Positions 599-36,361 are shown, counted from the first letter of the stretch. The stretch: 41,911 bases of DNA from a virus (IMGVR_UViG_3300029893_000022:1-41911); one strand, 5' to 3'. Made by a program: numbers and translations. The notes: generated from the letters alone by a model not told the origin.

Positions 599-687
599 GA
601 TTCTCTCTCCATTTGCCTAAAGTATAACACACGTATTACACACAATCAATATGTTTAGATTAGAAATAGATTAGAAAAGGTATGTAC

Positions 688-8001: not shown

Positions 8002-8022
8002 CTATGGCATCCTGTGGCACAT
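7983..8022 (-). repeat. conserved gene-start module, copy R2 (contains the methyltransferase start)
   Basis: gcctctcgttccagctcatctatggcatcctgtggcacat; minus strand reads cacAGGAtgccatagATGAGCTGGAACGAGAG, encoding MSWNER. Confidence 0.8.
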
Positions 8023-8062
8023 TTGCTCGCGCCTATCACTCAGCTTGAGTTCCATTCAGCAA

Positions 8063-8425: not shown

Positions 8426-8660
8426 TTTGATCCTCCTGTTCTCGTTCCAGCTCATCTATGGCGTCCTGTGGCACATAATAGCCATGCTCACGTAATGTCC
8501 TGAGAAACTCCGCCGTCTCGCCTGGTGTATCAAAGTCGCGGCTGTCTCCATCATAGGGGCCACCCGCAAGCCATTTAACGTGTACCACATAGACGCCGTC
8601 CGAATAGTAGCAGTACACGTCCGATCTGAAGTTATCGCTGCTAAATCTGCAGTACGCCAT
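8382..8660 (-). CDS. hypothetical protein (92 aa)
   Basis: GGAGAG RBS and ATG at 8660; 3-prime end reads through repeat R3 and overlaps the next gene. Confidence 0.5.
   Translation of the reverse strand: MAYCRFSSDNFRSDVYCYYSDGVYVVHVKWLAGGPYDGDSRDFDTPGETAEFLRTLREHGYYVPQDAIDELEREQEDQNEAGDHHTKQISGL
8441..8476 (-). repeat. conserved gene-start module, copy R3
   Basis: ctcgttccagctcatctatggcgtcctgtggcacat; its ATG (8455) is in frame with the ATG at 8425 of the Cys-rich gene, giving MSWNENRRIK-MKLEII. Confidence 0.8.
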
Positions 8661-10908: not shown

Positions 10909-12345
10909 ATGTTGTATCGCTGTTATAATACAGTTATGCAACAAAGCCTGGAAAAATATGTTTCTGCGGCTAAAGACGCCGGTTGCACTGCCGATCAAAT
11001 GCGGCGATTCCTGACCGCCGGTTATATTGCCCTCCCCTGGACTTTGAATTTTCATGCCGCCGCACGCATGGCGGATCAAGATGACGGCCCTTACTGGATT
11101 GCCCTGGGCGGCGCACGCGGCCCAGGAAAATCCCACGCCGTGCTGGCACAAGTGGCACTGGATGATTGTCGTCGTCAACCAGGATTGACTGTATTATATC
11201 TGCGAAAGTTACAACGATCCGCAGGAGAAAGTCTCGAAGGTCTGGCAAAGCGTGTTCTGGGCAGGGTGGCTTATAGTTATAGTGGAGCGAGTGGGTTGTT
11301 GCGTGTGGGGGAAAGCCGGATTATCATCGGCGGTTATCGCAATAGCCAGGACATTGATCGCTATATCGGCCTGGAATATGATGCGGTCGTCATAGAAGAA
11401 GCGACACAAGTCGGAGAAGATAGAATCACTGCTTTGCGCGGTAGTATCCGTTCCAGCATTCAAGGATGGCGAACACGAGTTTATCTCTCTACTAACCCAG
11501 GCGGAATCGGACACCGATGGTTCAAAAAGACATTCGTCCGCGCCGATCCAACAACCCGCTTTCTGGGGCTTCCGGTTCGTTTCTTTCCGGCTACTTACCG
11601 CGATAATCCGTTCTTGAGCCGTGACTATATCGAATACCTGGAATCTCTGCGCGGCCCGTTGGGTTCTGCATGGCGCGATGGCGATTGGGATACATTCGAA
11701 GGTATTGCATTCCCAGATTGGAATGGTGCAGAACATGTCGTCGAACCATTCGATATTCCTAAAGAATGGCCGCGCTGGAGGGCAATTGACTGGGGCTATG
11801 CCGCGCCCCTCGTTTGCCTGTGGTTATCACGCGATCCTGACAGTGGAAGAATATATGTCTATCGTGAATATACTGCGAAGCAATTGACGGATCGCCAGCA
11901 GGCAAGGATCATCCGCGAATTGACATCGCCAGGTGAAAATATCAATATCACGTATGCCGATCCAAGCATGTGGGCAAAGAAGAATGTCGCAGATGTGGTG
12001 ACCAGCATTGCCGATGAATATCGAACAGAAGGTATAATATTAACGCCTGCTGATAATGATCGCATAGATGGGAAGCAGCGCATCCATCGCCTGTTGGCAA
12101 AATTGCCGGATGGCAAGCCTGGATTGCAGGTGATGTCTAATTGCGAATATTTGATCGAGACTATGGAAACAATTCCCAGCAGTTTAATCTGGCCCGAAGA
12201 TGTTGACACGGAGGCGGACGATCATGCCTACGATGCACTGCGCTATGCATTGACGAATTACGATCACAAGCCGACGGAACGCGTAGGAATGGGGATATTG
12301 TTATATAACCGCGAGTTTGAGAAACTAAGGAAGATACTGGGATGA
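10909..12345 (+). CDS. terL: terminase large subunit
   Basis: Walker A GGARGPGKSHAV; Walker B-like YDAVVIEEATQ; C-terminal nuclease-like region (IDWGYAAP ... DHAYDALRYAL). Start uncertain: ATG 10909 or ATG 10936 (MQQSLEK...). Confidence 0.85.
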   Translation: MLYRCYNTVMQQSLEKYVSAAKDAGCTADQMRRFLTAGYIALPWTLNFHAAARMADQDDGPYWIALGGARGPGKSHAVLAQVALDDCRRQPGLTVLYLRKLQRSAGESLEGLAKRVLGRVAYSYSGASGLLRVGESRIIIGGYRNSQDIDRYIGLEYDAVVIEEATQVGEDRITALRGSIRSSIQGWRTRVYLSTNPGGIGHRWFKKTFVRADPTTRFLGLPVRFFPATYRDNPFLSRDYIEYLESLRGPLGSAWRDGDWDTFEGIAFPDWNGAEHVVEPFDIPKEWPRWRAIDWGYAAPLVCLWLSRDPDSGRIYVYREYTAKQLTDRQQARIIRELTSPGENINITYADPSMWAKKNVADVVTSIADEYRTEGIILTPADNDRIDGKQRIHRLLAKLPDGKPGLQVMSNCEYLIETMETIPSSLIWPEDVDTEADDHAYDALRYALTNYDHKPTERVGMGILLYNREFEKLRKILG

Positions 12346-14045
12346 CAGAAAAAAAGTACGATGAACAAAAGTTTCTGGAATTGACACAGTATGCGTATGA
12401 TATGCAGACTTCCAGTTCTGGGCGTGATGAGATGATCCAGGCCATGCGCCACATGTACACACTGGATGACCCAGAATTAGAGAAGCTCGGCAATACGTTC
12501 AAGAATATCGTAATCTCATATTCTCCCACAGCGAGCAATGCAATCGAAACCGCAGTGCGCTTGTTGAGCGTCAACGAACCGGGCGTGAACGTGCCGGAAG
12601 AAATGCACGAAACGACCGACCCGGAAACGCTGAATAATATTGAACGGTTTGCCCAAATTATGCTGCGGCAGTCGGATCGAATTCGCGGATCTCTGTTGAT
12701 TGTGGATGGTATTCGTTCTGGTTTGCTGTATGATGAGATTCACATAACCGTTAATAGCACGAATGATCTATATGAACAGGTGAAAAGCCGCGGCGGTGGA
12801 TTGGCAGCGCGCGCAGAACGTGTCAAAAATCTGACGCCTTATCTGTTTTCTGTGCATGATCCGACAGGTTGTTATGTGGATTGGGACATTATGGGGATGC
12901 GCGCCTGGGCGCGGCGAGTAGAAATGAGCGCGCAACGGATCATAGATGAATATGGAGATGCCGGAAGAGAAGCCGTTGGATCATATTCGAGTAGCTCACT
13001 CGGACGATTGAATACTTATTTTGTCTGGTCAATGTGGGATTTGGATTATTACGTCTGTTGGATCGAAGGCGCAAAAAAGCCGATCTATTTTCGAGAGAAT
13101 GAATTAGGATTTATTCCGGTTGTGGTGCATACAATCGAAGGTTCTGAGATGTTCTCTGATCGGAAGATGCGCCGAATGCCGTTCCTGTATCGCATGTGGA
13201 AAAGCGGCGTTTGGAAAAGCCAAAATATTGCGCTATCGGCAATCTATACCAGAGCAAGAACCAGAATGTGGGCGACCTATTTATACAAAGCCCCATCTGA
13301 TGCAAGCAAGCCGGAAATTGATTTGACTATGCCGATCAATATGATTCAGATTGATCCGCGATATGAAATGATGCCGTTCCCCTCCGATCCGGCGAACAAC
13401 GAAATGTGGCAGGCGTGGAATTTATCCGATCAGCTTGGCACAGAAAGCACGATCTATAAACAGGTTGCCGGTAAGCCCTTGGGACCAAATTCTACATACA
13501 GCGAGACGGCACTTCTTTCACAAGCAGGGCGCTTGCCATTAGTGCCGGTGCAGCGCAAGATGGAATGGGCGCTGGGCGACGCGCTGCGGATGGCTTTCTT
13601 GTGGATGAAGAACGATTCTGGGGAATATCAAGGACAGGAACGCGGAAACATTTATACCTTGAACGCCGCACAGATACCGGATAATCTTGAAATAGAAGTC
13701 AATCTGGATATTGCCATGCCGCAGGATCGCCTGCAACAGGCAAACATTTTCAATATTCTGAAGGATCGTGTACCGGATGAATATTTGTACGAACATCTGT
13801 TGAATGAACGTCAACCCAAAGAAATGGTGAAGCGTCTATGGCAACAAAGAATACGAGATGCCTTGATTGGGAGCGAATTACAACAGATGATGCAACAACA
13901 ACAGGCGCAGAATATGCCACAGCCACCACCTTCCCAGCCAGAAGCGATGGGAATGCAAGGAATACCGCCGGAGATGATGATGGGTGGAATGCAGGGGCCC
14001 GAACAAATGCGCGGTGAACAGATGCCCGGAGGTGAAATGCCGTGA
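12342..14045 (+). CDS. portal protein (putative)
   Basis: 567 aa immediately after terL with ATGA overlap; size and position typical of portal; Gln/Met/Pro-rich C-terminal tail. Confidence 0.65.
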   Translation: MTEKKYDEQKFLELTQYAYDMQTSSSGRDEMIQAMRHMYTLDDPELEKLGNTFKNIVISYSPTASNAIETAVRLLSVNEPGVNVPEEMHETTDPETLNNIERFAQIMLRQSDRIRGSLLIVDGIRSGLLYDEIHITVNSTNDLYEQVKSRGGGLAARAERVKNLTPYLFSVHDPTGCYVDWDIMGMRAWARRVEMSAQRIIDEYGDAGREAVGSYSSSSLGRLNTYFVWSMWDLDYYVCWIEGAKKPIYFRENELGFIPVVVHTIEGSEMFSDRKMRRMPFLYRMWKSGVWKSQNIALSAIYTRARTRMWATYLYKAPSDASKPEIDLTMPINMIQIDPRYEMMPFPSDPANNEMWQAWNLSDQLGTESTIYKQVAGKPLGPNSTYSETALLSQAGRLPLVPVQRKMEWALGDALRMAFLWMKNDSGEYQGQERGNIYTLNAAQIPDNLEIEVNLDIAMPQDRLQQANIFNILKDRVPDEYLYEHLLNERQPKEMVKRLWQQRIRDALIGSELQQMMQQQQAQNMPQPPPSQPEAMGMQGIPPEMMMGGMQGPEQMRGEQMPGGEMP

Positions 14046-14047
14046 CG

Positions 14048-14248
14048 ATGAATATTGATGATCTGCGTGAGATGATTCTGGCTGCACGCCGCGAAGCGGC
14101 CGATATTGTGCGGGATACGATAGATGATTTTTATCGCCCAGACCGCGAATTGGAACTTGCTCTACATGCATCTACTCTGCCGGTGGATGCATGGCAATAT
14201 GTTGATCCAGAGATCAGACGGCAGATAATGGAGGTGTTCAATGCCTAG
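14048..14248 (+). CDS. hypothetical protein (66 aa)
   Basis: ATG at 14048 with GGAGGTGA upstream. Confidence 0.45.
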   Translation: MNIDDLREMILAARREAADIVRDTIDDFYRPDRELELALHASTLPVDAWQYVDPEIRRQIMEVFNA

Positions 14249-14930
14249 AGACCCTTATGATCATCCATCCTCTTGGCGTCCGATTGGTGGAGGTCGCTCG
14301 CCTTATCCAACCTATGGGCAGGGGCCGTATATGCCGCCGGTCAGGGGCCGATCTTCTTATCCAACCTATGGGCAGGGGCCATATATGCCGCCAACTGCCG
14401 CACCGCGGCAAACTCCGCAGCCAACCGCCGGTGGCTGGAATCCTGGCGTATATCAAAGAATGAGTACCTGGGTGGATTTAATGCGAGAAAATAATCAACC
14501 TGCCGGTTGGTATGGCGCAACATCTGGCGGCTATACGGGACGAGTCTATGGTGAGCTTGGTGGCCTCGGCGCTTATAATCCCGTGACCGGAGCATGGGAA
14601 CCGGCGATTACGGCTACGATGTATGACCCCAATTATGGGAATCCGGCGACTTATAGCGGATATACTTTCAGTAGAAACAGAAACCGTGGAGGTCGCTATG
14701 CATGGATGACTAATCTCTGGGAACAAAGATTGGGGCGTGAATTGACACCACAAGAAAGATATGATGTGATGAATCCGGCACGCTTCAATCCATATACCGG
14801 AGAGACAAAAGTCCCTGCGGGCAAAAAGGTATTAGGTTATAAGCCAAAAGCCGGTGGCAAGAAAGGCAAGAAGGGCCGTGCAGGTGTTGCGCCTGGATGG
14901 ACGAGCGCCGTAGCGCAATTCAACGTATAA
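14241..14930 (+). CDS. Pro/Gly/Tyr-rich low-complexity protein with internal duplication
   Basis: GGAGGTG RBS; duplicated motif YPTYGQGPYMPP; Lys-rich C-terminus; likely virion-associated given its position. Confidence 0.55.
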   Translation: MPRDPYDHPSSWRPIGGGRSPYPTYGQGPYMPPVRGRSSYPTYGQGPYMPPTAAPRQTPQPTAGGWNPGVYQRMSTWVDLMRENNQPAGWYGATSGGYTGRVYGELGGLGAYNPVTGAWEPAITATMYDPNYGNPATYSGYTFSRNRNRGGRYAWMTNLWEQRLGRELTPQERYDVMNPARFNPYTGETKVPAGKKVLGYKPKAGGKKGKKGRAGVAPGWTSAVAQFNV

Positions 14931-14934
14931 AAAG

Positions 14935-17900
14935 ATGACCGATCGTCCACCTTCCTCTCCTGATGCAGGTGAAATCTGGCGCGGCGTCTTCGGCGATCTT
15001 TATGGATTGGATCGCCCGGAAAGACAGCCGATGCGCCCAGAAGCTGTCGAGCGCCCAGAAATACCCAGGAATCTTGTCAGTTATGACAGTGAACGTCTCA
15101 AGACGCTCTATGGATTGACGCGCGCCACAACCAGACCGGAATGGATGGATGACCGCGTAAGCGGATTGATTGAGCAAGCGTACAACTTCTATGAGCAAAA
15201 CAATCTTTTGCCTACGGAAGTAGTCAGCTTGCTGGATGCAATTCCACTCGAAGGAATCCAAATGCCGCAAATTGGCGCCGAACCATTGCCGGAAATTGCC
15301 CCCGGACAGGCGCGTTATTACGGCATGACTGAGGAAGAATGGAATTCTTTAGACCCGTGGCAGCGATTGAGCATGCGCGTCATGGGAACGGCTGTTCCGG
15401 CGGGAGCGGCAACCGGTGCGGTAGCCGGCATTGCCGGAGGTGGTGGTCTTCAAGGTGGGATCGTCGGCGCGGCCATTGGTACAGGTTTGGGAGTCCTCGG
15501 ACAGAAGTTTCCGGCGCTGCAAACCTTCATGGATCGTGTGCTGGGCGTTGCCTGGCGCACCGGTAAACGCGCCGTTGGCACTGTTGGACTTGGATTGTAT
15601 TCGCTCAAACCTGGCGATGATTTCACGTTTGGTGAATGGATACGCAATCTGGATGATGCCTGGTATGCGTCTGAGCATGCGGCGCGGGTAATGCCGCTTG
15701 CAAGTCCTATGGAAGCATTTACCCGCCTTCAACCATTCCAAATACCGGTGGCCGGAATGCGCACCGGACTGGAAAGTATCCAACGCGGATTGGAAGGGCT
15801 TGGATTTGGTCGGCAGGCAGAACAAGTAGAAAAGGTTTCTCAACTATTTCCAGGGATAAAATCTCCGGTTGAATTGCGCATTGAGGATGGAAAATGGAAA
15901 GTATCCACGGTGCCCCGCCCGCAGATGGAAGCCTGGGAATTTGGAACGACTAAAACTCGCATCATCCCTGAAGAACAACAAGGCGCGCGGGCGCTGATCG
16001 AATATATGCGCCGTCTGGATTCTATCCCACCAGAACAGTGGGCGGAGGGACGTGCTGCCCTGGATGAAGAATTCGTGCAGCGTTATGGATTCCAGGGACA
16101 GATGAAAGAATTGTTGGGGTCTATCTTTCTCGATCCGTTTAATTATTTGGGGGGATGGACAACGAAAATAGCCGGGGGTGTGGGGAAATTACTCGGCGCA
16201 GCACCGGAGTTTGCAAATGCAATGGAAGGTGCAGCAGGGCCGGTTCAGGGTGTCCAACGCTTCAAAGCCCTGACGCGCACAATGGAGTTTGCGGATTGGA
16301 AACAATTATCGCCCATCGAGAAATGGTTGAGCGGCGCTTATTCCCCGGACGGAACACCAAAATTGTTGGAGAAGATGCCCAATGGCGGCATCCGTGGCGC
16401 AGCTTATAAGGCACTTGGCGGAGACAGCAGTCCTATCGCACGATCTTTTGGTTATCTGTTTCATCTGACGCCAGAGTCCAGAGTAAAAGAACTGGTCAAT
16501 GTTGGGTCTCAGAATATTGCCATGATCGCAGATCGGGCGGCAATGAACCCTGAACAATTCGTGAAGTTCGTGGAATTGATCGCGGATAATCAGATCGAAG
16601 CCGCTGCGCAATTGTCGGTAAAGGCATTTGGGGGGCCGGAGATGGGAGCGCTGATTCCTTCGTTGCGCGAGAATTTGCCCCTGTTGAAACAGGCCTTGGA
16701 AGAATATAACTCACCGCAGGCGCGCCAGATGCGCATTGCATTGCAGAATATCGCCAAAGTGAACAACATAGACGAAGCGACATTGATAAAACGCTTGATG
16801 GATATTCGCAGTGGTGATCGCAATGCTTTGACTTTCTTCAATAGCCTGCGAGAAACTGCTCAACGTGTGGGGGATGATGCAGCACAGGCGATATTGAAAG
16901 CCATTGATGATGGAGAATTGACGCCGGAAAGTCTGAAAGAATTTGCCGATGCAGTGAGCAGCAAGGGCGCAGTGTGGAGCGATAATCAGATGATCGGCAA
17001 GATGTATGCCACACTGATAGATGGCGTATCCCAATGGGCAGTGGATTATTATGGAGTAAAGCCCGATTCCTTTTCCATTCGATTGGGGAATATCGTTCGT
17101 CAGGTACAAGGACTGGTATTTCTGGATGCTTCGCCATCATATGCATTGCAGAACATTATAGACAACACATTGAAGATCACACGTGAAGGGGGTATTCTTG
17201 GATTTGCTATTTCCGGCGGGGCGCAAAAGTATATTGCGGATTTCTATCATGGGATTGCGCCAGAAAGTCTTGTGAAAGGTGGCTTGGCTGAATACTCATT
17301 CGGCGGAAAGGCATTGCCGGGTGCCATTGCCAAAGCAAAAGAAACACCGCCGGATGCAATTTCCAGAGCCGAAAAATTGATAAGCGGAATTCGGGAGAAG
17401 CTGCCTGTCTCGATGGGCAGATTATCCGCCAGGGCTGAGGTAAAAATGCGCACCGCAGCCTTTGCGGATGGTTTGCGCAAAGCAATGAACAATCTGTGGC
17501 AACCCGGAAAAGGATTTGATCGTTTGCCCGCAGAACTCGAAAATGCAATCGGCAAAGAAAATGCTCATGCTCTCTATAACAAGATCGCCGGGCTGCATGA
17601 TGGACAGAAGATTATTGATAGCCTGTTCGCCGAAGCAGATATTGGGCGGGTGGTAGATGAAGCTGTTGGGGATGCTGCTTCTGCTTTAGGGAAAGACGCT
17701 ACGGCGGCACGCCAATTGTTGGATCAGCTTGGCATCTTAGATCAGTTAAGAGAGAAATTACCGCCAGGGGCTACGAGCAATCAAATACATGCCGCCTTTG
17801 ATGACGTAGTGAAACAGGCGCGTCAGGAATTTGCCAAACAACATCGAGAACAAGTCATGGCGCGTTTCGAGAAGGCGATTAATAAAAGCTCCGAAGAAGG

Positions 17901-20900
17901 AACATTAGGGACATTGGCGGTTTTCGATGATATTTCTCAGATGCATTATGAGCAACGCATGTATGACATCAGTCAGTGGGATGCCATTTTTTCTGGGAAA
18001 GAGATCGGCGTTCGAGGAGATGATATTTCGGCGGCTGTGATTCGCCAGTATGAACAACAACGAGATGCGTACAAAATGCTCAATGAAAACGTACGCGCTA
18101 TGTACGCCGGTGTCTCTGAGGCGTTGGGAGTTGACAGCGCTTATGGAAAATTCTTTGCCAATACTGCTTTGGATGAACATAATCTGTGGCGTGGTTTTTA
18201 CGACACGGTTCTGGCGGACTATAAACGATTGCGGGCGGAAGCTGCGAAGCTGAAAGGAAAAGATGTACCGGCTCAGGAATGGAAGCGCATCAGCGATCTT
18301 TGGGCGGAAGTGAGAGAAAAGAACCGTCAGCTCTATATCGAGACCAATACCAGAGCTTTGGAGATACAGGCGGCGCGGGATACGAAAGTCGTAGAGATGA
18401 TTGGGACGCGCTATGGCGAAGAAGCTGCTGTGGCTGCCAAACAATGGTTGGATGGAGTACGAAACATAACAGACGAACTTTATACTGCTGTTGAAAACTT
18501 CCGCCTGAGCCTGGAAGAGATGCCACGTGAACAACGCGGCCCGGCGTGGGAGAAATTCTGGCGCGAGACCTATCAACCGTTGATGGCAAGACGCCTCGCC
18601 GAGAACCTGGCTGGCGCACGCGAAGTCTATGCACGGGCAATGCAAATCGAAAAATCTGGAGCGGCAAGCCCACCCAGAGCCGAACCTATTGCGCCTGCCG
18701 AGAAATGGGTTCAGGAAGCACGCCAGCAGAAATTATATGAAATGACCGGCCTCACCGAACAAGATCGTTTGTTTGTGATAGAGATGCGCCGTCTGGCTTC
18801 TGAGTATGGAATTCCGAGCGCAGATGAAAGTGGAAGACCGATTTCCGGTTTCGATAAACGCCTTATCAATACGATCAATAAATATGGTGGGACAGATTAT
18901 AAAGATATTCTGGAGATCAATCCTGAAATTGCACGCCAGGCATTGGAGCGGCATGCAATTGAAAAAGGAATTGAATTACCGCAAGAACCGCGCGTTGCTG
19001 ATTTTCCAGAACCTGATCCAGACGAGGTTCTGAAACTAGCACAGACGATTGAACAGGAACGGCTTGAAGGCGCATTGCGCGGATGGACAGAAGATTTACC
19101 CGGATACAAGCCGATTGAAAAGAAACCGACCGCTCCGACAGGAGCAGATGTGATTGGCGTAGCACCTCCAGGGACGATAGATGGTTTATCTGGGATGCCG
19201 CTTTATGACATCAATTGGCAAGGATGGAATACTGAGGTCAGCCCATTGTTGCGCGCATTGGAAGATACTATGCTTGATCCGACAAAGCGAGCAGTGACGG
19301 CTAAGAATCTGAATCTTACACCAGAACAAACCAAAGCCTTGCGTTTGTGGGCAGAGAAAGTTCGTGGACAATTGACAGATGCCAAGTTCGCTGCCACAAA
19401 GTTTTCTGAGATCAGTATGAATATGGCGATGCTGGATTATGATCGGCGTTATGGTTTAGATAATATTGCCAACTTATTCATCCCTTATCAATTCTGGTAC
19501 ACGCGTTCTGCACTGAACTGGATGCTTACTGCTATTGACCGACCGGCGTGGTTCGTGCAATGGCATCGCATCCGTGAAATGCAAGAAGAATTAGCCAGAC
19601 CGGTGGAAGGATTTCCTTCGCGTCTGGCGGGAAAGCTGGCTATTCCAATGCCTTTTATGCCGGAGGGTTGGGGCAACACGATTTATGTTGATCCGTGGCA
19701 TCAGATATTCGGTTTCGAAAGTATGCTTGCCCAGGTAACGCGGCCGTTGGCACGTGATATTTCTAATCGTGTTGGGCGTGCCACTTATATTATTGACGAA
19801 ATGATACAGAATGGCGAGATTACACCCGAAGAGGGCGATCAAGCCAAAAAGAGTCAATCCGGCGCAATATGGGAACAAGCATATAGACAAGCAGAAGCCG
19901 AAGTGAAGGCAGAAGTTTCCACACCGCTGGATTTGGTCAACACTGTGTTCTCATTTAGCTTGCCGTTGCAATGGGCATTAGAACGAACAGGATTATTACA
20001 GGATCGTTATGGTGGTGGTGTTGGTAGTTACCCATTGTTCTCCACCATTCAGAACATCACCAGCTTCATGACGCCAGGTGGAATCAACATACCGGAGACA
20101 ATATCCAATGCATTGGGAGCGGCTGAAAATCCAGAAGCCTATCGTGGTTTTCTGTATGAATACTATATTCAGCGCGAACTGGCGAACATGGCTGCTAATG
20201 GTGCAGATATTGAATTGATCCGCAAAGCAATGGTAGATAAGAGCGGCCCGCTTTGGGAAGCGGCGGAAAGAACTGCGGCACAACAACAGGCGGTTCGTTC
20301 TTTTGCGTCTATCTTCTGGGCGGACTTCTTTCCAGAGGGCGAAGAACAACAGAGAAAGTTGAGAACTCTATTCGAGCAATATGCCGATCAAGGAAAGCTG
20401 ACGGAGTTTTTCGATAAATATCCAGAGTATCAGGCGCGCATGATGCTTAGAAACTGGGATGATCCAGAAGCCATGATGCGTCAATTTTTGGTCAGCAATG
20501 CCTGGGATGCCTATTATAAATTGAGCGATTTAGAGAGACGCGCTGTGCGTGAACAGTTCGGCGATCTCTTTGCGGATAGTTTCTTGAACAAAGAGACGCG
20601 TAGCTATGACAGCATTGATACAGAGACGCTTGCCGGATGGGTGCGTGCTATGCGTGGGGTTGTTCCTGAAACTGCGCCAGGGGGGATGCCACAGATTGAA
20701 CTGCCGACGCCGGAATTAAGTGCGCTCTATGACCAATATAATTCGCTTCCTGGATCAGATTTGATGAAATTCTACTGGTCATTGCCGGAAGCGATGCGAG
20801 ATGAATTCAAGCGCAATCATCCAGAATATTATCAGTATCAGGATGCGAAGGCGATCTTTTTGATGCAGCATCCTGATCTATTGCCATACATCATTAGCGA

Positions 20901-21384
20901 GGATAGCTATCTTGCTGGCGCATCGCCAGAAGTTTTACAGGAATATTATTTCTATCTGGCTGAAAGAGCAATGTATTTTCCTATGATTAAGGCGACACAG
21001 AATCAATATTACAGCCTTCCAAAGAATGAACGTCGGGCATTTCTGGCGCAGCACCCAGAATTGAAAGCCTATTGGGATTGGAATAGAGATCGGAAAGATC
21101 AATTATCTCCAATGGCGCGTTATTATGTGATAGGCGAAGAGGGGATGCGCAAAGAAGCGCTGGGGAATTTATATGAGCCGGAATATGAAGTGAACTATGA
21201 GGTATTCCCAACAGAATTATTGACATTTCTGCTGGCAGAATCGCTTCTCAATCGTCCGCTGGGGCCGAGCAGCATGGCGACTCTGCGTGATATTTGGGAA
21301 CAAGAGCGCCCGCCCATGTCTTTTGAGGATTGGCTTGCTCTGGTAAGACAGGGATTTGCATGGGATCCAATCAATGCAAGATAA
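14935..21384 (+). CDS. giant protein (2149 aa), function unknown; possibly virion-internal or ejection protein
   Basis: A 6450-nt open frame between portal and scaffold/capsid genes; N-terminal Gly-rich hydrophobic segment (GTAVPAGAATGAVAGIAGGGGLQGGIVGAAIGTGLGVLG); otherwise largely helical and charged; no Walker or polymerase motif recognised. Confidence 0.8.
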   Translation: MTDRPPSSPDAGEIWRGVFGDLYGLDRPERQPMRPEAVERPEIPRNLVSYDSERLKTLYGLTRATTRPEWMDDRVSGLIEQAYNFYEQNNLLPTEVVSLLDAIPLEGIQMPQIGAEPLPEIAPGQARYYGMTEEEWNSLDPWQRLSMRVMGTAVPAGAATGAVAGIAGGGGLQGGIVGAAIGTGLGVLGQKFPALQTFMDRVLGVAWRTGKRAVGTVGLGLYSLKPGDDFTFGEWIRNLDDAWYASEHAARVMPLASPMEAFTRLQPFQIPVAGMRTGLESIQRGLEGLGFGRQAEQVEKVSQLFPGIKSPVELRIEDGKWKVSTVPRPQMEAWEFGTTKTRIIPEEQQGARALIEYMRRLDSIPPEQWAEGRAALDEEFVQRYGFQGQMKELLGSIFLDPFNYLGGWTTKIAGGVGKLLGAAPEFANAMEGAAGPVQGVQRFKALTRTMEFADWKQLSPIEKWLSGAYSPDGTPKLLEKMPNGGIRGAAYKALGGDSSPIARSFGYLFHLTPESRVKELVNVGSQNIAMIADRAAMNPEQFVKFVELIADNQIEAAAQLSVKAFGGPEMGALIPSLRENLPLLKQALEEYNSPQARQMRIALQNIAKVNNIDEATLIKRLMDIRSGDRNALTFFNSLRETAQRVGDDAAQAILKAIDDGELTPESLKEFADAVSSKGAVWSDNQMIGKMYATLIDGVSQWAVDYYGVKPDSFSIRLGNIVRQVQGLVFLDASPSYALQNIIDNTLKITREGGILGFAISGGAQKYIADFYHGIAPESLVKGGLAEYSFGGKALPGAIAKAKETPPDAISRAEKLISGIREKLPVSMGRLSARAEVKMRTAAFADGLRKAMNNLWQPGKGFDRLPAELENAIGKENAHALYNKIAGLHDGQKIIDSLFAEADIGRVVDEAVGDAASALGKDATAARQLLDQLGILDQLREKLPPGATSNQIHAAFDDVVKQARQEFAKQHREQVMARFEKAINKSSEEGTLGTLAVFDDISQMHYEQRMYDISQWDAIFSGKEIGVRGDDISAAVIRQYEQQRDAYKMLNENVRAMYAGVSEALGVDSAYGKFFANTALDEHNLWRGFYDTVLADYKRLRAEAAKLKGKDVPAQEWKRISDLWAEVREKNRQLYIETNTRALEIQAARDTKVVEMIGTRYGEEAAVAAKQWLDGVRNITDELYTAVENFRLSLEEMPREQRGPAWEKFWRETYQPLMARRLAENLAGAREVYARAMQIEKSGAASPPRAEPIAPAEKWVQEARQQKLYEMTGLTEQDRLFVIEMRRLASEYGIPSADESGRPISGFDKRLINTINKYGGTDYKDILEINPEIARQALERHAIEKGIELPQEPRVADFPEPDPDEVLKLAQTIEQERLEGALRGWTEDLPGYKPIEKKPTAPTGADVIGVAPPGTIDGLSGMPLYDINWQGWNTEVSPLLRALEDTMLDPTKRAVTAKNLNLTPEQTKALRLWAEKVRGQLTDAKFAATKFSEISMNMAMLDYDRRYGLDNIANLFIPYQFWYTRSALNWMLTAIDRPAWFVQWHRIREMQEELARPVEGFPSRLAGKLAIPMPFMPEGWGNTIYVDPWHQIFGFESMLAQVTRPLARDISNRVGRATYIIDEMIQNGEITPEEGDQAKKSQSGAIWEQAYRQAEAEVKAEVSTPLDLVNTVFSFSLPLQWALERTGLLQDRYGGGVGSYPLFSTIQNITSFMTPGGINIPETISNALGAAENPEAYRGFLYEYYIQRELANMAANGADIELIRKAMVDKSGPLWEAAERTAAQQQAVRSFASIFWADFFPEGEEQQRKLRTLFEQYADQGKLTEFFDKYPEYQARMMLRNWDDPEAMMRQFLVSNAWDAYYKLSDLERRAVREQFGDLFADSFLNKETRSYDSIDTETLAGWVRAMRGVVPETAPGGMPQIELPTPELSALYDQYNSLPGSDLMKFYWSLPEAMRDEFKRNHPEYYQYQDAKAIFLMQHPDLLPYIISEDSYLAGASPEVLQEYYFYLAERAMYFPMIKATQNQYYSLPKNERRAFLAQHPELKAYWDWNRDRKDQLSPMARYYVIGEEGMRKEALGNLYEPEYEVNYEVFPTELLTFLLAESLLNRPLGPSSMATLRDIWEQERPPMSFEDWLALVRQGFAWDPINAR

Positions 21385-21428: not shown

Positions 21429-22139
21429 ATGGACAGTATTGACAACAGCTTTGGGAGTGGTTTGGCGGAGGAACAACTGCCGGACGAAACCATTCAGGCG
21501 GATGGCGCACTTCCAGAGAGTCAACCACAATACGTCACAGAAGACATTCTGGAGCATGTTTTGGATCAGTTCAGCGAAAAGCTGACACGTAAAATCCAGA
21601 GCATGACGGACAAGAAGTCTGACCGCATCAAGAAAGAACTGGAGAAGAAACTGCAAGAGAAGGCTGAGATTTATGCGGCGCTGGGATTACAGATGCCAGA
21701 ACACATAAAACAGCAAGAGATCGAGCGTTATCTTCAGTCAATCCAGGATCAGCCGGAAGCAGACGAAGGAGCTGCTCCTATCATTCCTGATCCGATTGTG
21801 GAGGCGGTCAACCGGCGCGCAGCGCTGATCGAGAAGAGGTATGGCGTGACTTTGAATGAAGATGACCCTGAGATCAAGCTGGTCAACTTCCGCACGCTGG
21901 ACCCAATGGAATATCTCGAATCGCGTGAAGCGGCGGTGAAGGCGAAGGCCGCGCGTCTGAAAGGCGCGGGGCAAGGTGCGCCGTCTGTGCCTGCTGCACG
22001 TTCCCCGGCGATAGGTCAGGGTCAGCCCAGCGGTGATTTGATGGCACAGTATCTGCGCGAGATACAAAGCGTTCGCCCTGGAAGCGAAGAGGCGCTGCAA
22101 ATTCGGCGCAAATATCGCCAGAAGGGGTTGGCTCTATGA
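21429..22139 (+). CDS. scaffolding-like protein (putative)
   Basis: GAGGAGG RBS; acidic, helical, coiled-coil-rich 236-aa protein directly upstream of the capsid gene. Confidence 0.5.
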   Translation: MDSIDNSFGSGLAEEQLPDETIQADGALPESQPQYVTEDILEHVLDQFSEKLTRKIQSMTDKKSDRIKKELEKKLQEKAEIYAALGLQMPEHIKQQEIERYLQSIQDQPEADEGAAPIIPDPIVEAVNRRAALIEKRYGVTLNEDDPEIKLVNFRTLDPMEYLESREAAVKAKAARLKGAGQGAPSVPAARSPAIGQGQPSGDLMAQYLREIQSVRPGSEEALQIRRKYRQKGLAL

Positions 22140-22155: not shown

Positions 22156-23304
22156 ATGGCTGTCACGGATAGTCCATTCAGCACTTACAGCGATACCACC
22201 ACTCATCGCCGGGCAATTACGGATGTCATCAGCTTGATTGACCCGACCACCACTCCGGCGATTGCCGCGATGGGCGGTTTGGATGGAGCTGCTTCAAAAT
22301 TTCGTTTTGTGAACTGGCCTTCAAAGACTGTCGAATGGCTTGAGGATACTCATGCTCCATTGAGCGATACTTTGAATGAATCGGCCAGCATCACTTCTAC
22401 TGTCACCACGATTACGGTTACGGATGCTTCGCTGTATGAGCCAGGATACATTATCAAGATTGATAGTGAATATCTCTGGGTCTCCTCGGCTGCGATTACA
22501 ACCAATATCTTGACCGTTACTCGTGGCGTTGCCGGTTCTACGGCTGCGACCCACGCCTCCACTGCGTCTATTGAGATCATCTCCAATGCACGCGTGGAAG
22601 GTGCGGAAAGCACGCCGATTGCATTTACGACTCGTACAACCGGTTCGAATGTGACACAGATTTTCCATCAGGAAGTCAAAGTCCCGCGTTCGCAAATCAA
22701 GTTATCTCAATATGGCATTGCAGATGAAATGGCTTATCAGAAAGATAAGGCTGTTCCGGCGATTATGCGCATGATTGAGAAACATATATTTAACTCGAAG
22801 GCGCTTTCGACCGGTTCTGTTTCGGTTGGCCGCATCATGAACGGCTTGCAGGGCTTCATCACCACCAACAAGATCAGTGGAGCGAGTCTGTCTCAGGCGG
22901 CATTTGAGAATGCGGTTCTTTCCGCTTATAACAATGGTGGCGGCGGGCCGTGGGTGGCATTCGTCAATCCGGTTGTGAAACAGAAGATCAAAAACTTCTA
23001 TGACACGACTGGAGTAGCTTCGGCGACCATCCTGCGTGTATCTCAGGATACGCGCGAAGTCGGCATGAACATTGACCGCATCAACACCCCATTTGGTACG
23101 GTTGATCTGGTGATGACGCGTTGGGTTGCTTCCAACATTGTTCCCATCGTTGACCTGCAACACGTTGGGTTCATCACCTATGATCCGTTCCAGTGGGAAG
23201 ACCTCGCCAAGACCGGCGACTATGAGCGCGCCGAAGTGGTCGGCGAGTTCACCTTCTGCCTGCGACAGGAGAAGGCACACGCCATTTTGACCGCGGTGAG
23301 CTAA
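22156..23304 (+). CDS. major capsid protein (putative)
   Basis: AGGAGG RBS; 382 aa; position after scaffold; followed by a strong hairpin terminator. Confidence 0.6.
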   Translation: MAVTDSPFSTYSDTTTHRRAITDVISLIDPTTTPAIAAMGGLDGAASKFRFVNWPSKTVEWLEDTHAPLSDTLNESASITSTVTTITVTDASLYEPGYIIKIDSEYLWVSSAAITTNILTVTRGVAGSTAATHASTASIEIISNARVEGAESTPIAFTTRTTGSNVTQIFHQEVKVPRSQIKLSQYGIADEMAYQKDKAVPAIMRMIEKHIFNSKALSTGSVSVGRIMNGLQGFITTNKISGASLSQAAFENAVLSAYNNGGGGPWVAFVNPVVKQKIKNFYDTTGVASATILRVSQDTREVGMNIDRINTPFGTVDLVMTRWVASNIVPIVDLQHVGFITYDPFQWEDLAKTGDYERAEVVGEFTFCLRQEKAHAILTAVS

Positions 23305-29348: not shown

Positions 29349-30146
29349 ATGACGACCCTATTCAATGCCACGCTAGAACTGGCAAAAGTATTGGGCTATG
29401 TTATTTCTTCCACCACGACCGCCGATGGTTCAACCACGACACTCATAGACTCGGCGCGTGTCACTGAAGTGGATGATTTCTGGAATGGTGGCACACTCTG
29501 GATTACCAGCGGCACTTATAGCGGCAACAGCCGAAAAGTGACAGACTTTCTGAATTCTACTGGAATGTTCACTTTTTCGCCCGCTCTTGCCGGAGCGCCG
29601 GGAACCGGCAATACCTATAGTGTCATCAATGGAGATTGGCCGAAGGAAATGCTGATCCAGTTCATCAATCAGGCATTGCAGGACATGGGGGATGTTCCGG
29701 CGATTGACACCAGCCTGACCACCACGGCGAACACTGCACGCTATGCGCTGCCTTCGGGCGTCTATAACATCAAACGTGTGGAAATCGAAGAGAACATCAG
29801 CTCAGCTTATCCTTACATTCCGTGGTTATTGTGGCGAGAGATAGATGGTTATCTGGAATTCGATCTACAATATCCAGAAGCCGGAAAAACTATCCGATTG
29901 ACTTATGAAGCTAAACATGCCACGGTGAGCAGCGATGCTTCGATCATCAGCAATTACGTTGATCTGCGGCTGCTGGTGTGGAGTGCGGCGGTTCACGCCT
30001 GGCGCTGGCGGATGCAACGTGTGGGCGGGGATAAGCCGATCTTCCTGCAAATGATGAGCGAAGCCATACAAAATCGAGACAAATTGCTTGCAAACCCTGA
30101 GATGCGCAAGAGAATTCCGAAAGATCCGCGAGTGCCGTTATTATGA
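29349..30146 (+). CDS. hypothetical tail/structural protein
   Basis: 265 aa; stop overlaps the next start (ATGA). Confidence 0.5.
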   Translation: MTTLFNATLELAKVLGYVISSTTTADGSTTTLIDSARVTEVDDFWNGGTLWITSGTYSGNSRKVTDFLNSTGMFTFSPALAGAPGTGNTYSVINGDWPKEMLIQFINQALQDMGDVPAIDTSLTTTANTARYALPSGVYNIKRVEIEENISSAYPYIPWLLWREIDGYLEFDLQYPEAGKTIRLTYEAKHATVSSDASIISNYVDLRLLVWSAAVHAWRWRMQRVGGDKPIFLQMMSEAIQNRDKLLANPEMRKRIPKDPRVPLL

Positions 30147-35610: not shown

Positions 35611-35618
35611 TGCCGAAA

Positions 35619-36311
35619 TTATATCTCATCATACCACCCAAACTCTTCCGGCGTATATAGGCGATGATGATTGTTCTCTGCCACAATCCAGGGATCGCTA
35701 ACAGGCAATCCCTCTAACTTGCGCCATACCAGCCACAGGTGCGATAACCACACTTTTATCATCTTGCGCATGGCGGCGTTATGCTTGTGCAGCTTTGTCC
35801 AATCTTCGCGGCTTTCGTACTCCTCGCGCGCCTTGTCGTAAATGTCGCGATAGGGACTGCCGGAGCGCAGGAAGGATGAACCGATCAAATAGCAGGTTGT
35901 CTTGAGGCGAATGTTGTAATGGAGTTTCTCGCCCTTGACCGGCTTCTCGCGTTCTCCGTTGATGACGGCATAACCTGCATACCGCCAAAGGGCGCTGATG
36001 GTATCGGCGCGGTGGATGTCAATCATCACCACCGTTTTCAGAGCAAGTGTCTTTCCGACGCCTCTCACGCGGCACATATATTCCACAATCGGAAAATCAT
36101 CCGCCAAATCTTTGATGGATGAATCCAGCTCATCTTCCAACAACTGGAATTTGGTCATCCACTGCTCGATATAATGGCGGTACGTTGGATTATCAGTACC
36201 GCGGTCTATTGCGGACAGGCGATTGCTGAATTGAATGCGTGCTTTCTGGATGATTCGGTCTCGCAGATCAACCAACGCACGGGCTAAAACTGAAATAGAT
36301 GGGTCTGTCAT
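35619..36311 (-). CDS. IS110-family recombinase C-terminal domain-like protein (coiled coil plus helix-hairpin-helix), lacking the N-terminal DEDD catalytic domain
   Basis: AAGGAGAG RBS and ATG at 36311; VRGVGKTLALKTVVMIDIHRADTISALWRYAGYAV and HNAAMRKMIKVWLSHLWLVWRK resemble the conserved C-terminal (Transposase_20-type) region of IS110/IS116/IS902 proteins; only 230 aa; no DEDD motifs. Confidence 0.6.
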   Translation of the reverse strand: MTDPSISVLARALVDLRDRIIQKARIQFSNRLSAIDRGTDNPTYRHYIEQWMTKFQLLEDELDSSIKDLADDFPIVEYMCRVRGVGKTLALKTVVMIDIHRADTISALWRYAGYAVINGEREKPVKGEKLHYNIRLKTTCYLIGSSFLRSGSPYRDIYDKAREEYESREDWTKLHKHNAAMRKMIKVWLSHLWLVWRKLEGLPVSDPWIVAENNHHRLYTPEEFGWYDEI

Positions 36312-36361
36312 GATATTCTCTCCTTATATAGTATGTATGGTAACGCTTACTGATCTTAGGT

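What the first reader, a model, noticed from the sequence alone, without database searches (positions are those of the whole stretch)
14935..21384. A 2149-aa giant ORF between the portal and scaffold/capsid genes
A single 6.45-kb open frame takes about 15% of the genome in the head-morphogenesis position. It has a Gly-rich hydrophobic N-terminal segment and a long helical, charged body with no enzymatic motif I could recognise. Giant proteins here are usually packaged internal or ejection proteins, sometimes with anti-defence roles.
Basis: partly seen in the sequence, partly recalled or inferred. Interest (0 to 1): 0.6.

Follow-up and report, generated by a model that had tools for sequence, protein, structure and literature searches.

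The report
Giant cysteine-free virion ejection-type protein
The 2149-residue gene is real and is most likely a protein packed into the phage head and shot into the host with the DNA: a stripped-down member of a very large, unnamed family whose bigger relatives carry anti-defence enzymes in one central slot.

Summary
The ORF (14935-21384, +, 2149 aa, 15.4% of the window) is real and not an assembly chimera: collinear full-length homologues at 74%, 42% and 39% identity lie on independent contigs. It has no hit in Pfam, PHROGs, NCBIfam or the PDB, and the predicted fold is almost all alpha-helical. An exhaustive profile search found at least 1719 related clusters, nearly all giants of 2000-5560 aa. 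None is in a cultured phage. The family has three parts: a conserved N block with a Gly-zipper hydrophobic segment, a single variable central slot, and a conserved C block at the extreme C terminus. In relatives the slot carries ART-PolyVal, ddrB-ParB, Sno/SNF2 helicase, GGDEF, RadC or PBECR domains, the hallmark cargo of 'polyvalent proteins'. Here it holds only a roughly 110-aa helical domain of unknown function. The protein has 0 Cys against 20 expected. Across 91 loci the family has 0.022% Cys against 0.77% in neighbouring genes, the known signature of ejected podovirus proteins (T7 gp15/gp16, N4 vRNAP). Synteny is fixed: TerL, probable portal, giant, scaffold, SU10-type capsid, adaptor, nozzle. 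Best reading: the phage's large ejection protein, a cargo-poor chassis. This is a new variant of a known kind. Packaging itself is not shown.

The parts
14935..21384 (+). Giant ORF, 2149 aa, 241 kDa, pI 5.1, zero Cys
14935..15324 (+). N-terminal leader, aa 1-130: acidic and weakly conserved, with P/W/Y motifs conserved across the family
15379..15498 (+). Gly-zipper hydrophobic segment, aa 149-188. It is the only strongly hydrophobic stretch and the candidate membrane-inserting element.
   Evidence: The homologue P0004 gives a weak Gly-zipper_YMGG hit at the same place. An N1 profile is conserved in 105 of 157 family proteins.
15580..18702 (+). Conserved N block, aa about 216-1256: all alpha-helical apart from a small beta unit near aa 313-344
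17776..18657 (+). Run of seven long helices (35-48 residues each), aa about 948-1241, at the end of the N block
   Evidence: pLDDT 74-86. The only fold matches are generic helical bundles.
18703..19134 (+). Central cargo slot, aa 1257-1400. It is the family's single insertion hot spot. Here it holds a small helical domain of unknown function plus a Pro-rich linker.
   Evidence: P0004 has an intact GGDEF domain in this slot. AF2 pLDDT is 82-91 for aa about 1260-1370.
19135..21381 (+). Conserved C block, aa 1401-2149, always at the extreme C terminus in the family. Its last third is an aromatic-rich helical repeat with recurring HPE(L/Y)xxY(W) motifs (aa 1962, 1979, 2040).
10909..12345 (+). Large terminase
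   Evidence: Terminase_3, 2e-13; phrog_2, 6e-39
12342..14045 (+). Probable portal, 567 aa
   Evidence: Position directly after TerL; synteny; weak SPP1_portal hits; no PDB or PHROG hit.
14042..14930 (+). Two small Cys-free ORFs (68 aa and 229 aa) abutting the giant. The 229-aa protein is Gly/Pro/Tyr-rich with a basic tail. A LysM-annotated protein occupies this place in the Manatee Spring virus.
21429..22139 (+). Probable scaffolding protein, 236 aa, assigned by position
22156..23304 (+). Major capsid protein, SU10 type
   Evidence: (PF17236, 1e-62)
29349..30146 (+). SU10-type adaptor
   Evidence: PF24175. It co-occurs with the giant in 49 of 91 loci.
30143..32884 (+). 913-aa probable nozzle/tail protein. 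It always follows the adaptor.
   Evidence: 51 of 91 loci

Best explanation
The giant ORF encodes the large internal virion (ejection) protein of an uncultured podovirus of about 42 kb with SU10-like head and tail genes.

It is made late, together with the portal, scaffold and capsid proteins, and is enclosed in the procapsid. At infection it is expelled through the portal, adaptor and nozzle channel ahead of or with the DNA.

The conserved N block (Gly-zipper hydrophobic segment plus long-helix bundles) and the conserved C block (helical repeat at the free C terminus) form a 'chassis'. The chassis provides head incorporation and, after ejection, insertion into or extension across the cell envelope.

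Between the two blocks lies a single slot. In most relatives the slot carries 0.2-3.5 kb-equivalents (up to about 3500 aa) of enzymatic cargo delivered into the cell: ADP-ribosyltransferase, ParB-like nuclease, Sno/SNF2 helicase, GGDEF cyclase, RadC and PBECR RNase domains, often with a zincin-like HExxH motif. In this phage the slot holds only a helical domain of about 110 aa, so this copy is close to the bare chassis.

Shown: the ORF, the tripartite family architecture, the cargo domains in relatives, the cysteine suppression, the synteny and the all-alpha prediction. Inferred: packaging, ejection, which block does what, and conduit formation.
For: 1. Real, conserved gene. Collinear homologues at 74%, 42% and 39% identity cover 98-100% of the protein. 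The same protein occurs on 3 contigs.

2. Large family. A profile of the C block finds 1719 clusters with E<=1e-3 and 751 with E<=1e-30. Almost all are 2000-5560 aa, with the C block ending a median of 4 residues from the C terminus.

3. Tripartite design with one hot spot. 125 of 157 proteins have both blocks. The gap between them ranges from 11 to 3496 aa, with a median of 1187; the query's is about 150.

4. All Pfam-recognisable domains of relatives lie in that gap.
- P0004: GGDEF at 1241-1345, with an intact GGDEF motif.
- P0005: methyltransferase.
- P0009: ddrB-ParB.
- P0010 and P0011: DUF6908 plus Sno helicase, with GGDEF as well in P0011.
- P0012: GGDEF plus ART-PolyVal.
- In 24 further members: ART-PolyVal in 10, ddrB-ParB in 9, helicase in 3, GGDEF in 3, RadC in 1 and PBECR5 in 1.

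5. Cysteine suppression. The giant has 0 Cys against 20.5 expected from this phage's other ORFs (Poisson 1e-9). 130 of 157 family proteins have none. Across 91 loci there are 48 Cys in 218,993 aa (0.022%), against 0.767% in neighbouring same-strand ORFs. T7 gp15 (0 of 747), T7 gp16 (0 of 1318), N4 vRNAP (0 of 3500) and N4 gp51 and gp52 are also Cys-free, while the portals and tail proteins of those phages are not. PMC11445570 reports the same for Schitoviridae ejection proteins.

6. Fixed synteny on one strand in 91 loci: TerL, portal, giant, scaffold, MCP, then adaptor and nozzle.

7. It is the only Cys-free protein above 300 aa in the window. There is no other candidate for a large ejection protein; only ORFs of 87-275 aa follow the nozzle. 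In SU10 the ejection proteins gp20-24 are encoded there.

8. The all-alpha prediction with long helices and a Gly-zipper hydrophobic segment matches the general character of T7 gp15 and DEV gp72, which are 'entirely alpha-helical'.

9. The layout parallels DEV gp71 / N4 gp50: a transmembrane region N-terminal of the enzymatic core, and a C-terminal domain that binds the partner ejection protein.

10. Precedent: the 2811-aa polyvalent gp47 of podovirus phi24B was detected in virions by proteomics and proposed to be the ejection protein.
Against: There is no direct evidence of packaging or ejection: no proteomics, and no cultured relative. tblastn against 50,697 GenBank phage records finds only five metagenomic Manatee Spring genomes.

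No sequence, profile or fold similarity was found to any characterised ejection protein. hhalign probability is below 1% against N4 gp50, T7 gp15 and T7 gp16. Foldseek against the PDB found nothing at E<0.25.

No peptidoglycan hydrolase domain is present, unlike T7 gp16 or SU10 gp20.

The AF2 models are of modest quality (pLDDT 66 and 61, pTM 0.32-0.35). The most conserved stretch, aa about 1470-1610, is modelled poorly, so a hidden enzymatic fold cannot be excluded.

Cysteine absence is also seen in scaffolding proteins (T7 gp9 and this phage's own). It therefore proves selection against Cys, not ejection as such.

The host is unknown. If it is monoderm, as the prophage-like copies in Chloroflexi contigs hint, the periplasmic rationale for Cys avoidance is weaker.
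Confidence: 0.6

Rival explanations
1. The protein is primarily an injected anti-defence or host-takeover effector (a true polyvalent protein). Its N block, C block or small central domain would be an unrecognised enzyme or inhibitor. DNA delivery itself would not depend on it.
For: Relatives carry classic counter-defence and takeover domains. Iyer et al. list 40 uncharacterised LPD domains, several predicted to be enzymatic. The central domain at aa about 1260-1370 folds confidently and is shared by only about 10 of 157 relatives, as a cargo module would be. The C block has a few invariant charged residues: R1545, R1563, D1586, R1747, E1803, R1807 and E1831.
Against: The N and C blocks are retained even where the slot is almost empty (gap of 11-200 aa in 13 of 125 proteins). 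This points to an essential function of the chassis, independent of cargo. The invariant positions are mostly Pro, Gly, Trp, Tyr and Phe; none is His, Cys, Ser or Lys. The protein has only 15 His against 42 expected. Both blocks are predicted to be all-alpha repeats or bundles with no enzyme-like fold match.
Confidence: 0.2
2. It is an internal head protein that stays in the capsid. It would act as an inner-body, scaffold-like or DNA-organising core that helps assembly or packaging, and would not be ejected.
For: The gene lies between the portal and scaffold genes. This is where SPP1 gp7 and Mu F minor head proteins are encoded, as the phage-head MuF proteins described in the passages read; the gene order in SPP1 and Mu is recalled from general knowledge, not taken from those passages. 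Scaffolds are also helical, acidic and Cys-free.
Against: Enzymatic cargo such as ADP-ribosyltransferases, nucleases, helicases and cyclases in relatives makes sense only if it is delivered into the cell (PMC5512222). A 35-fold Cys depletion over 219,000 residues, including the enzyme domains, fits transit in an unfolded state or through an oxidising compartment rather than a resident core. There is no Phage_Mu_F hit.
Confidence: 0.1
3. It is a tape-measure-like or tail/fibre structural protein, and the phage would not be a podovirus.
For: Foldseek against BFVD lists mainly tape-measure proteins for the N block (best named hit E 5e-3). Tape-measure proteins are also long and helical, with Gly-rich hydrophobic segments.
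Against: TM-scores are about 0.07-0.11, so this is only a generic long-helix resemblance. The locus has an SU10-type adaptor and a nozzle homologue, and PHROGs and Pfam recognised no tail tube or sheath among the structural ORFs scanned. The gene sits upstream of the scaffold and capsid genes, not in the tail block.
Confidence: 0.03
4. It is an artefact: an assembly chimera or a fusion of several genes through sequencing errors.
For: None found. Some relatives in the protein library are C-block-only proteins of 630-1400 aa. These could be split genes or contig-end fragments.
Against: Full-length collinear homologues were found on independent contigs and samples. The identical protein occurs in NCBI, JGI and Logan assemblies. 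51 complete ORFs of 1.8-3.8 thousand aa with the same layout occur in IMG/VR and GTDB loci. Composition is continuous.
Confidence: 0.01

Closest known systems
Phage-type 'polyvalent proteins' (Iyer, Burroughs, Anand, de Souza, Aravind 2017, PMC5512222)
   Same: Both are giant proteins encoded among late virion genes of portal-terminase phages. Relatives of the query carry the family-defining cargo: ART-PolyVal, ddrB-ParB, the SNF2/Sno helicase, GGDEF, RadC, PBECR and zincin-like HExxH motifs. Both are predicted to be injected with the DNA.
   Different: The query has no recognisable enzymatic domain, so it does not meet the definition of several disparate activities in one chain. The conserved N and C blocks match none of the Pfam LPD or MuF models. 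The strict three-part layout with a single slot was not mentioned in the sections of the paper I read.
N4 gp50 / DEV gp71 virion RNA polymerase (Schitoviridae large ejection protein)
   Same: Both are giant, Cys-free and virion-borne. Both have a three-part layout: an N-terminal part with a hydrophobic or transmembrane region, a central enzymatic core, and a C-terminal domain that binds the partner ejection protein.
   Different: No RNA polymerase is present and there is no homology (hhalign probability 0.9%). The gene lies next to the portal, scaffold and capsid genes rather than in a gp71-72-73-type operon. The central module varies across the family instead of being a fixed RNAP.
T7 gp14/gp15/gp16 ejectosome
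   Same: gp15 and gp16 are Cys-free. They are alpha-helical and are ejected to bridge the envelope.
   Different: T7 uses three proteins encoded after the tail genes, and gp16 has a lytic transglycosylase. Here there is one polypeptide, no hydrolase domain and no detectable homology.
phi24B gp47 (2811 aa polyvalent protein found in podovirus virions; bioRxiv 10.64898/2026.04.10.717836)
   Same: Both are single giant proteins of a podovirus. gp47 was detected in particles and proposed to be the ejection protein and a trans-periplasmic conduit.
   Different: gp47 has LPD5, LPD1, LPD38 and MuF-C metallopeptidase domains. None of these is found in the query or in the 24 relatives scanned.
SU10 (Kuravirus) virion and its ejection proteins gp20-24 (PMC9509320)
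   Same: The capsid (PF17236) and adaptor (PF24175) types are the same, and a large protein follows the adaptor where SU10 has its nozzle.
   Different: SU10 has five separate ejection proteins encoded after the tail needle, one of them a transglycosylase. It has no giant gene between portal and scaffold. This phage is about 42 kb.
Mu F / SPP1 gp7 minor head proteins and MuF-fused toxins
   Same: MuF and SPP1 gp7 are head components of portal-terminase phages, and the MuF domain is used as a carrier fused to effector domains. From general knowledge, their genes also lie just after the portal gene, as the giant does.
   Different: There is no Phage_Mu_F hit. The size is ten times larger. The cargo is internal rather than C-terminal.

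Membership tests
Polyvalent proteins (Iyer et al. 2017) | Two or more domains of disparate biochemical activity in one polypeptide | tested here: not met
   The query has no Pfam, PHROG or NCBIfam domain and no catalytic motif. Homologues do meet this feature.
Polyvalent proteins (Iyer et al. 2017) | Encoded by a phage or conjugative element, next to late virion genes | tested here: met
   The gene lies between TerL plus probable portal and scaffold plus SU10-type MCP. The order is conserved in 91 loci.
Polyvalent proteins (Iyer et al. 2017) | Homology to proteins carrying the signature domains (ART-PolyVal, ddrB-ParB, MPTase, SNF2-methylase, PBECR, LPDs) | tested here: met
   The N and C blocks align with P0009-P0012 and 24 further giants that carry these domains. 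No LPD model hits the conserved blocks themselves.
Polyvalent proteins (Iyer et al. 2017) | Delivered into the host with the DNA | not testable with these tools
   This needs virion proteomics or infection assays.
Podovirus ejection (internal virion) proteins, T7 gp15/gp16 and N4 gp50-52 class | Strong suppression of cysteine | tested here: met
   0 of 2149 residues against 20.5 expected. The family has 0.022% against 0.767% in neighbouring genes. The reference proteins are Cys-free (PMC11445570).
Podovirus ejection (internal virion) proteins, T7 gp15/gp16 and N4 gp50-52 class | Predominantly alpha-helical, with a hydrophobic or membrane-active segment | tested here: met
   AF2 secondary structure. 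Gly-zipper segment at aa 149-188. Model confidence is only moderate.
Podovirus ejection (internal virion) proteins, T7 gp15/gp16 and N4 gp50-52 class | Sequence or fold homology to a characterised ejection protein | tested here: not met
   hhalign probability is below 1% against N4 gp50, T7 gp15 and T7 gp16. There are no PDB sequence hits and no Foldseek PDB hit.
Podovirus ejection (internal virion) proteins, T7 gp15/gp16 and N4 gp50-52 class | Present in virions and absent from emptied particles | not testable with these tools
   No cultured member exists.
Podovirus ejection (internal virion) proteins, T7 gp15/gp16 and N4 gp50-52 class | Cell-wall hydrolase domain in one ejection protein (T7 gp16 LT, SU10 gp20) | tested here: not met
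   No lysozyme, transglycosylase or peptidase domain was found in the giant. The Manatee Spring relative has a LysM-annotated gene just upstream.
N4-like virion RNA polymerase | Single-subunit RNAP catalytic core | tested here: not met
   There is no Pfam hit, and hhalign against N4 gp50 gives probability 0.9%.
Mu F / SPP1 gp7 minor head protein | Phage_Mu_F (PF04233) domain | tested here: not met
   There is no Pfam hit at E<=0.01 in the query or in the homologues scanned. Only the gene position agrees.
Tape measure protein | Encoded in a tail block with tube and chaperone genes; homology to TMP families | tested here: not met
   There are only generic BFVD matches with TM about 0.1. The gene lies in the head block, and the tail genes are an SU10-type adaptor and a nozzle homologue.

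The most novel reading that the evidence does not exclude
The conserved N and C blocks constitute a previously undescribed, self-sufficient single-polypeptide ejectosome 'chassis' with one plug-in slot. This would be a modular protein-delivery platform used by a very large clade of uncultured SU10-like podoviruses (at least 1700 clusters at 50% identity). Almost any enzyme of up to about 3500 aa could be swapped in and injected, provided it is Cys-free. The present phage would show the bare chassis, which would prove that DNA delivery rather than cargo is its core function.
Probability: 0.4. Interest if true: 0.65.

Novelty: new variant of a known kind. Interest (0 to 1): 0.5.

Why it matters
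If the reading is right, one gene family supplies both the DNA-delivery conduit and the vehicle for injected counter-defence enzymes. It does so in a large, globally distributed and entirely uncultured group of podoviruses.

The fixed N block, slot and C block layout gives a rule for finding injected phage effectors in metagenomes: whatever sits in the slot is cargo. It also gives a natural catalogue of Cys-free enzyme variants that tolerate passage through a phage tail.

The near-empty version in this window is the simplest construct for testing what the chassis does. The two conserved blocks are absent from Pfam, PHROGs, NCBIfam and the PDB, so defining them would improve annotation of thousands of viral contigs.

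Tried and rejected
- Direct annotation gave nothing usable. Pfam, PHROGs, NCBIfam and PDB sequence searches of the giant were empty. The NCBIfam aldehyde-dehydrogenase hit (15.6 bits against a cut-off of 615) is noise.
- Megablast against GenBank phages found no match. tblastn found only five metagenomic Manatee Spring genomes, both with the query and with a second family member.
- Foldseek of both AF2 models against the PDB gave no significant match. BFVD gave only generic long-helix hits to tape-measure proteins at TM about 0.1, which I rejected as evidence of homology. afdb50 was unavailable.
- A profile of the C block against PDB sequences gave nothing. The central domain against the PDB gave only de novo designed helical proteins.
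- hhalign of the family profile against N4 vRNAP, T7 gp16 and T7 gp15 gave probabilities below 1%. The one short match to the HELVH zincin motif of N4 vRNAP lies in insert columns of relatives, where the query has a gap.
- I tested whether the query's central domain is a degenerate GGDEF domain. It is not: P0004's GGDEF is an extra insertion or replacement in the same slot.
- The word-indexed protein search suggested a tiny family of 8-15 clusters. The exhaustive search showed this was a sensitivity artefact.
- I tried to confirm the portal by PDB sequence and profile searches, without success. Only weak Pfam support was obtained.
- P0012 could not be used in remote jobs.
- The host could not be determined.

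Full report
OBSERVATION

The window contains a single open frame at 14935-21384 on the + strand, with an ATG start, encoding 2149 aa.
- It takes 15.4% of the window. Such a stop-free run has a chance probability of about 1e-45.
- GC content and GC skew are continuous with the flanking late genes.
- The product is 241 kDa with pI 5.1.
- Its only strongly hydrophobic stretch is a Gly-rich segment at aa 149-188 (21% Gly over aa 131-215).
- Pfam, PHROGs, NCBIfam and PDB sequence searches find nothing.
- There is no HExxH, DxDxD, Walker A or GGDEF motif.

Neighbours are:
- TerL, 10909-12345 (Terminase_3);
- a 567-aa ORF that is probably the portal;
- two small ORFs of 68 and 229 aa;
- the giant;
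- a 236-aa probable scaffold;
- an SU10-type major capsid protein (PF17236, 1e-62);
- further downstream, an SU10-type adaptor (PF24175) and a 913-aa probable nozzle.

The portal call rests on position, on synteny, and on sub-threshold SPP1_portal matches only (query E 0.031; 5 of 23 homologues, best 1e-4). PDB searches did not help.

NOT AN ARTEFACT

Collinear homologues with 74%, 42% and 39% identity cover 98-100% of the protein on other contigs. The identical protein is recorded from NCBI, JGI and Logan assemblies on three contigs.

THE FAMILY

The word-indexed search suggested a rare protein (8, then 13 clusters). An exhaustive HMM search with an 11-sequence alignment of the C-terminal 750 aa told a different story. 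It found 1719 clusters (at 50% identity) with E<=1e-3 and 751 with E<=1e-30. Nearly all are 2000-5560 aa, with the match at the very C terminus.
- Of the 157 members held, 125 have both a conserved N block (query aa about 340-1250) and the C block. 105 also have the Gly-zipper region.
- The C block ends a median of 4 residues from the C terminus.
- The distance between the two blocks ranges from 11 to 3496 aa, with a median of 1187. In the query it is about 150 aa, and 13 of 125 members are below 200.
- Large insertions relative to the query are concentrated at aa 1243-1412.

So the family has a conserved chassis and one variable slot.

WHAT SITS IN THE SLOT

Every Pfam-recognisable domain in relatives lies between the blocks:
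- P0004: GGDEF, with the motif intact;
- P0005: a small methyltransferase domain;
- P0009: ddrB-ParB;
- P0010 and P0011: DUF6908 plus a Strawberry-notch/SNF2-type helicase, with GGDEF as well in P0011;
- P0012: GGDEF plus ART-PolyVal.

In 24 further members, ART-PolyVal occurs in 10, ddrB-ParB in 9, the helicase in 3, GGDEF in 3, RadC in 1 and PBECR5 in 1. 37 of 157 have a zincin-like HExGH...FxRxF pattern.

These are the signature domains of the phage-type 'polyvalent proteins' of Iyer et al. 2017. Those authors predicted that polyvalent proteins are packaged and injected with the DNA and are processed by a zincin-like peptidase.

The query's slot holds only a small domain (aa about 1260-1370) plus a Pro-rich linker. 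The domain is confidently predicted as five helices (pLDDT 82-91) and is shared with about ten relatives. It matches nothing known. In P0004 the same slot holds a GGDEF domain instead.

STRUCTURE

AF2 used 12-sequence alignments, because deeper ones could not be passed to the tool.
- aa 1251-2149: pLDDT 66, pTM 0.32, 69% helix. The last 330 residues are a confident aromatic-rich helical repeat (pLDDT 80-94) with recurring HPE(L/Y)xxY motifs. The most conserved stretch, aa about 1470-1610, is poorly modelled.
- aa 130-1250: pLDDT 61, pTM 0.35. This part is almost all helix, with one small beta unit and seven helices of 35-48 residues at aa about 948-1241.

Foldseek against the PDB found nothing for either model. 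Against BFVD the N block gave only low-TM (about 0.1) matches, mostly tape-measure proteins plus one 'large polyvalent protein associated domain' protein. That is a generic long-helix resemblance. Profile comparison with N4 vRNAP, T7 gp16 and T7 gp15 is negative.

CYSTEINE

The giant has no Cys. The other ORFs of the window have 0.95%, so 20.5 would be expected (Poisson 1e-9). His is also low, at 15 against 42 expected.
- 130 of 157 family proteins have no Cys at all, enzymatic cargo included.
- In 91 independent loci from IMG/VR and GTDB genomes, the giant-frame ORFs have 48 Cys in 218,993 residues (0.022%). Neighbouring same-strand ORFs have 0.767%.
- I checked known ejected proteins directly. 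T7 gp15 (747 aa), T7 gp16 (1318 aa), N4 vRNAP (3500 aa) and N4 gp51 and gp52 all have zero Cys. T7 gp8 and gp12 and N4 gp53, gp59 and gp43 do not.
- The DEV study reports the same suppression for Schitoviridae ejection proteins and attributes it to passage through the periplasm.

This is the strongest single argument that the giant travels out of the capsid. The giant is also the only protein above 300 aa in the window without Cys.

CONTEXT AND DISTRIBUTION

Across 91 loci the order on one strand is TerL, portal, giant, scaffold, MCP, then adaptor and nozzle. Adaptor and nozzle homologues are present in about 50 loci, wherever the flank is long enough.
- IMG/VR contigs are mostly 36-48 kb, like this window.
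- No cultured phage has the module. Among 50,697 GenBank phage records, only five metagenomic Manatee Spring podovirus genomes match. They have the same gene order and a LysM-annotated gene just upstream of the giant.
- GTDB hits are MAG contigs of Chloroflexi, Anaerolineales, Dehalococcoidia, Pirellulales, Gammaproteobacteria, WWE3 and Bacillota. Three lie inside Chloroflexi contigs of 250-330 kb, and two of those copies look frameshifted.
- The host of this phage is unknown.
- In SU10 itself, five ejection proteins (gp20-24) are encoded after the tail needle. Here only ORFs of 87-275 aa follow the nozzle, so the giant is the only candidate for a large ejection protein.

MECHANISM (INFERRED)

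The protein is made late and enclosed in the procapsid. On infection it leaves through the portal, adaptor and nozzle channel, necessarily unfolded or extended. Hence the all-helical build and the absence of Cys.

The Gly-zipper segment and long helices of the N block would insert into or span the envelope. The C block, which always needs a free C terminus, would mediate incorporation at the portal or capsid interior, or oligomerisation. This assignment is by analogy with DEV gp71 and N4 gp50, where a transmembrane region precedes the enzymatic core and the C-terminal domain binds the partner ejection protein.

Cargo in the slot is carried into the cell. Because chassis-only versions like this one persist, the chassis function is probably the essential one, and cargo is an add-on.

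An experimental precedent is phi24B gp47. It is a 2811-aa polyvalent protein found in podovirus virions and proposed to be the ejection conduit. It has different domains (LPD5, LPD1, LPD38, MuF-C).

COMPARISON AND NOVELTY

Functionally this is a known kind: large podovirus ejection proteins and polyvalent proteins.

Membership:
- The query fails the polyvalent definition itself, because it has no set of disparate activities. It is, however, homologous to bona fide polyvalent proteins.
- It shares the Cys-free, helical and hydrophobic-segment features of ejection proteins, but has no homology to any characterised one.
- It is not a MuF protein, a tape-measure protein or a vRNAP.

What is new:
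- the chassis family itself, which is absent from Pfam, PHROGs, NCBIfam and the PDB;
- its very large size and its restriction to uncultured SU10-like podoviruses;
- the strict single-slot architecture;
- the existence of near-empty versions.

I rate it a new variant of a known kind, with interest 0.5. Confidence that it is a virion protein is about 0.8. Confidence that it is ejected and acts as the delivery chassis is about 0.6.

SEEN IN PASSING

- A TIGR-Tas locus: a Tas endonuclease ORF at 35619-36311 on the minus strand (NF052498, 5e-54), flanked by two arrays of 36-nt dual-repeat units.
- 29-aa-repeat proteins encoded across the circular junction.
- A RecT gene.

Noticed in passing
window 35092-37205 (ORF 35619..36311, minus strand; arrays 35092-35656 and 36412-37205): A phage-borne TIGR-Tas system. 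The 230-aa ORF matches NCBIfam NF052498, 'TIGR-Tas system RNA-guided endonuclease' (E 5e-54, 183.5 bits, cut-off 100). It is flanked on both sides by arrays of 36-nt units. In each unit two conserved repeats (TGGGTTACT and TGGCTCGCTT) alternate with two variable stretches of about 8-9 nt. That is the dual-spacer tigRNA layout described by Faure et al. 2025 (PMC12045711)..
   Followed up: partly
window 1-648 and 41355-41909: Tandem repeats with an 87-nt period at both ends of the window form one array across the circular junction. On the minus strand they encode 29-aa repeats (consensus about LPDSRYDPRLVEALIA(S/T)GDPEWLYRAA), which look like HEAT/armadillo repeats. The repeats fall in two ORFs: 41152-41775, and one running over the junction.
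   Followed up: partly
window 39728-40876 (minus strand): A 382-aa RecT-family recombinase (TIGR00616, 9e-33). Nearby on the minus strand are AAA_25, D5_N (weak), RHH_1 (weak) and DNA_methylase (faint) genes.
   Followed up: no
window 14241-14930: The 229-aa ORF just upstream of the giant is Cys-free and Gly/Pro/Tyr-rich. It contains a 54-nt internal duplication (SPYPTYGQGPYMPP appears twice) and a Lys/Gly-rich basic tail. It has no homologues in Pfam, PHROGs or NCBIfam. In the Manatee Spring virus this position holds a 461-aa protein annotated 'lysin motif'. It may be a partner of the giant.
   Followed up: partly
window 4289-4337 and 4734-4764: A 9-nt tandem repeat, AACCAAGGC, repeated several times in a low-GC (44%) intergenic-looking region, with a second partial copy 430 nt downstream.
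   Followed up: no
window 7273-7330, 7971-8028, 8425-8482: Three copies (72-84% identical) of a 58-nt sequence inside three consecutive minus-strand ORFs. This suggests paralogous N- or C-terminal segments in small early proteins.
   Followed up: no
L003 11379-14438 (contig of homologue P0004): The related phage that carries the GGDEF-bearing giant has CTP_transf_3, NeuB, 2-hydroxyacid dehydrogenase and methyltransferase genes inside its structural block. These are nonulosonic/sialic-acid-type sugar genes, and they hint at glycosylated virion proteins. In this window, the 301-aa ORF 23587-24492 has weak glycosyltransferase PHROG hits.
   Followed up: no
L011 10001-12230 and L014 10001-11831 (Chloroflexia MAG contigs of 326 kb and 264 kb): The C-block matches are broken into several frames or pieces, and the containing ORFs are only 696 and 1230 aa. 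These look like decaying prophage copies inside bacterial chromosomes, which gives a lead to Chloroflexi as hosts for part of the family.
   Followed up: partly
family proteins P0020, P0057, P0067, P0089, P0104, P0120, P0133, P0154 (630-800 aa): Some library members consist of the C block alone. They may be contig-end fragments, or genuine split genes in which the C block is a separate polypeptide. They could not be looked up because the tool refuses proteins from that search.
   Followed up: no
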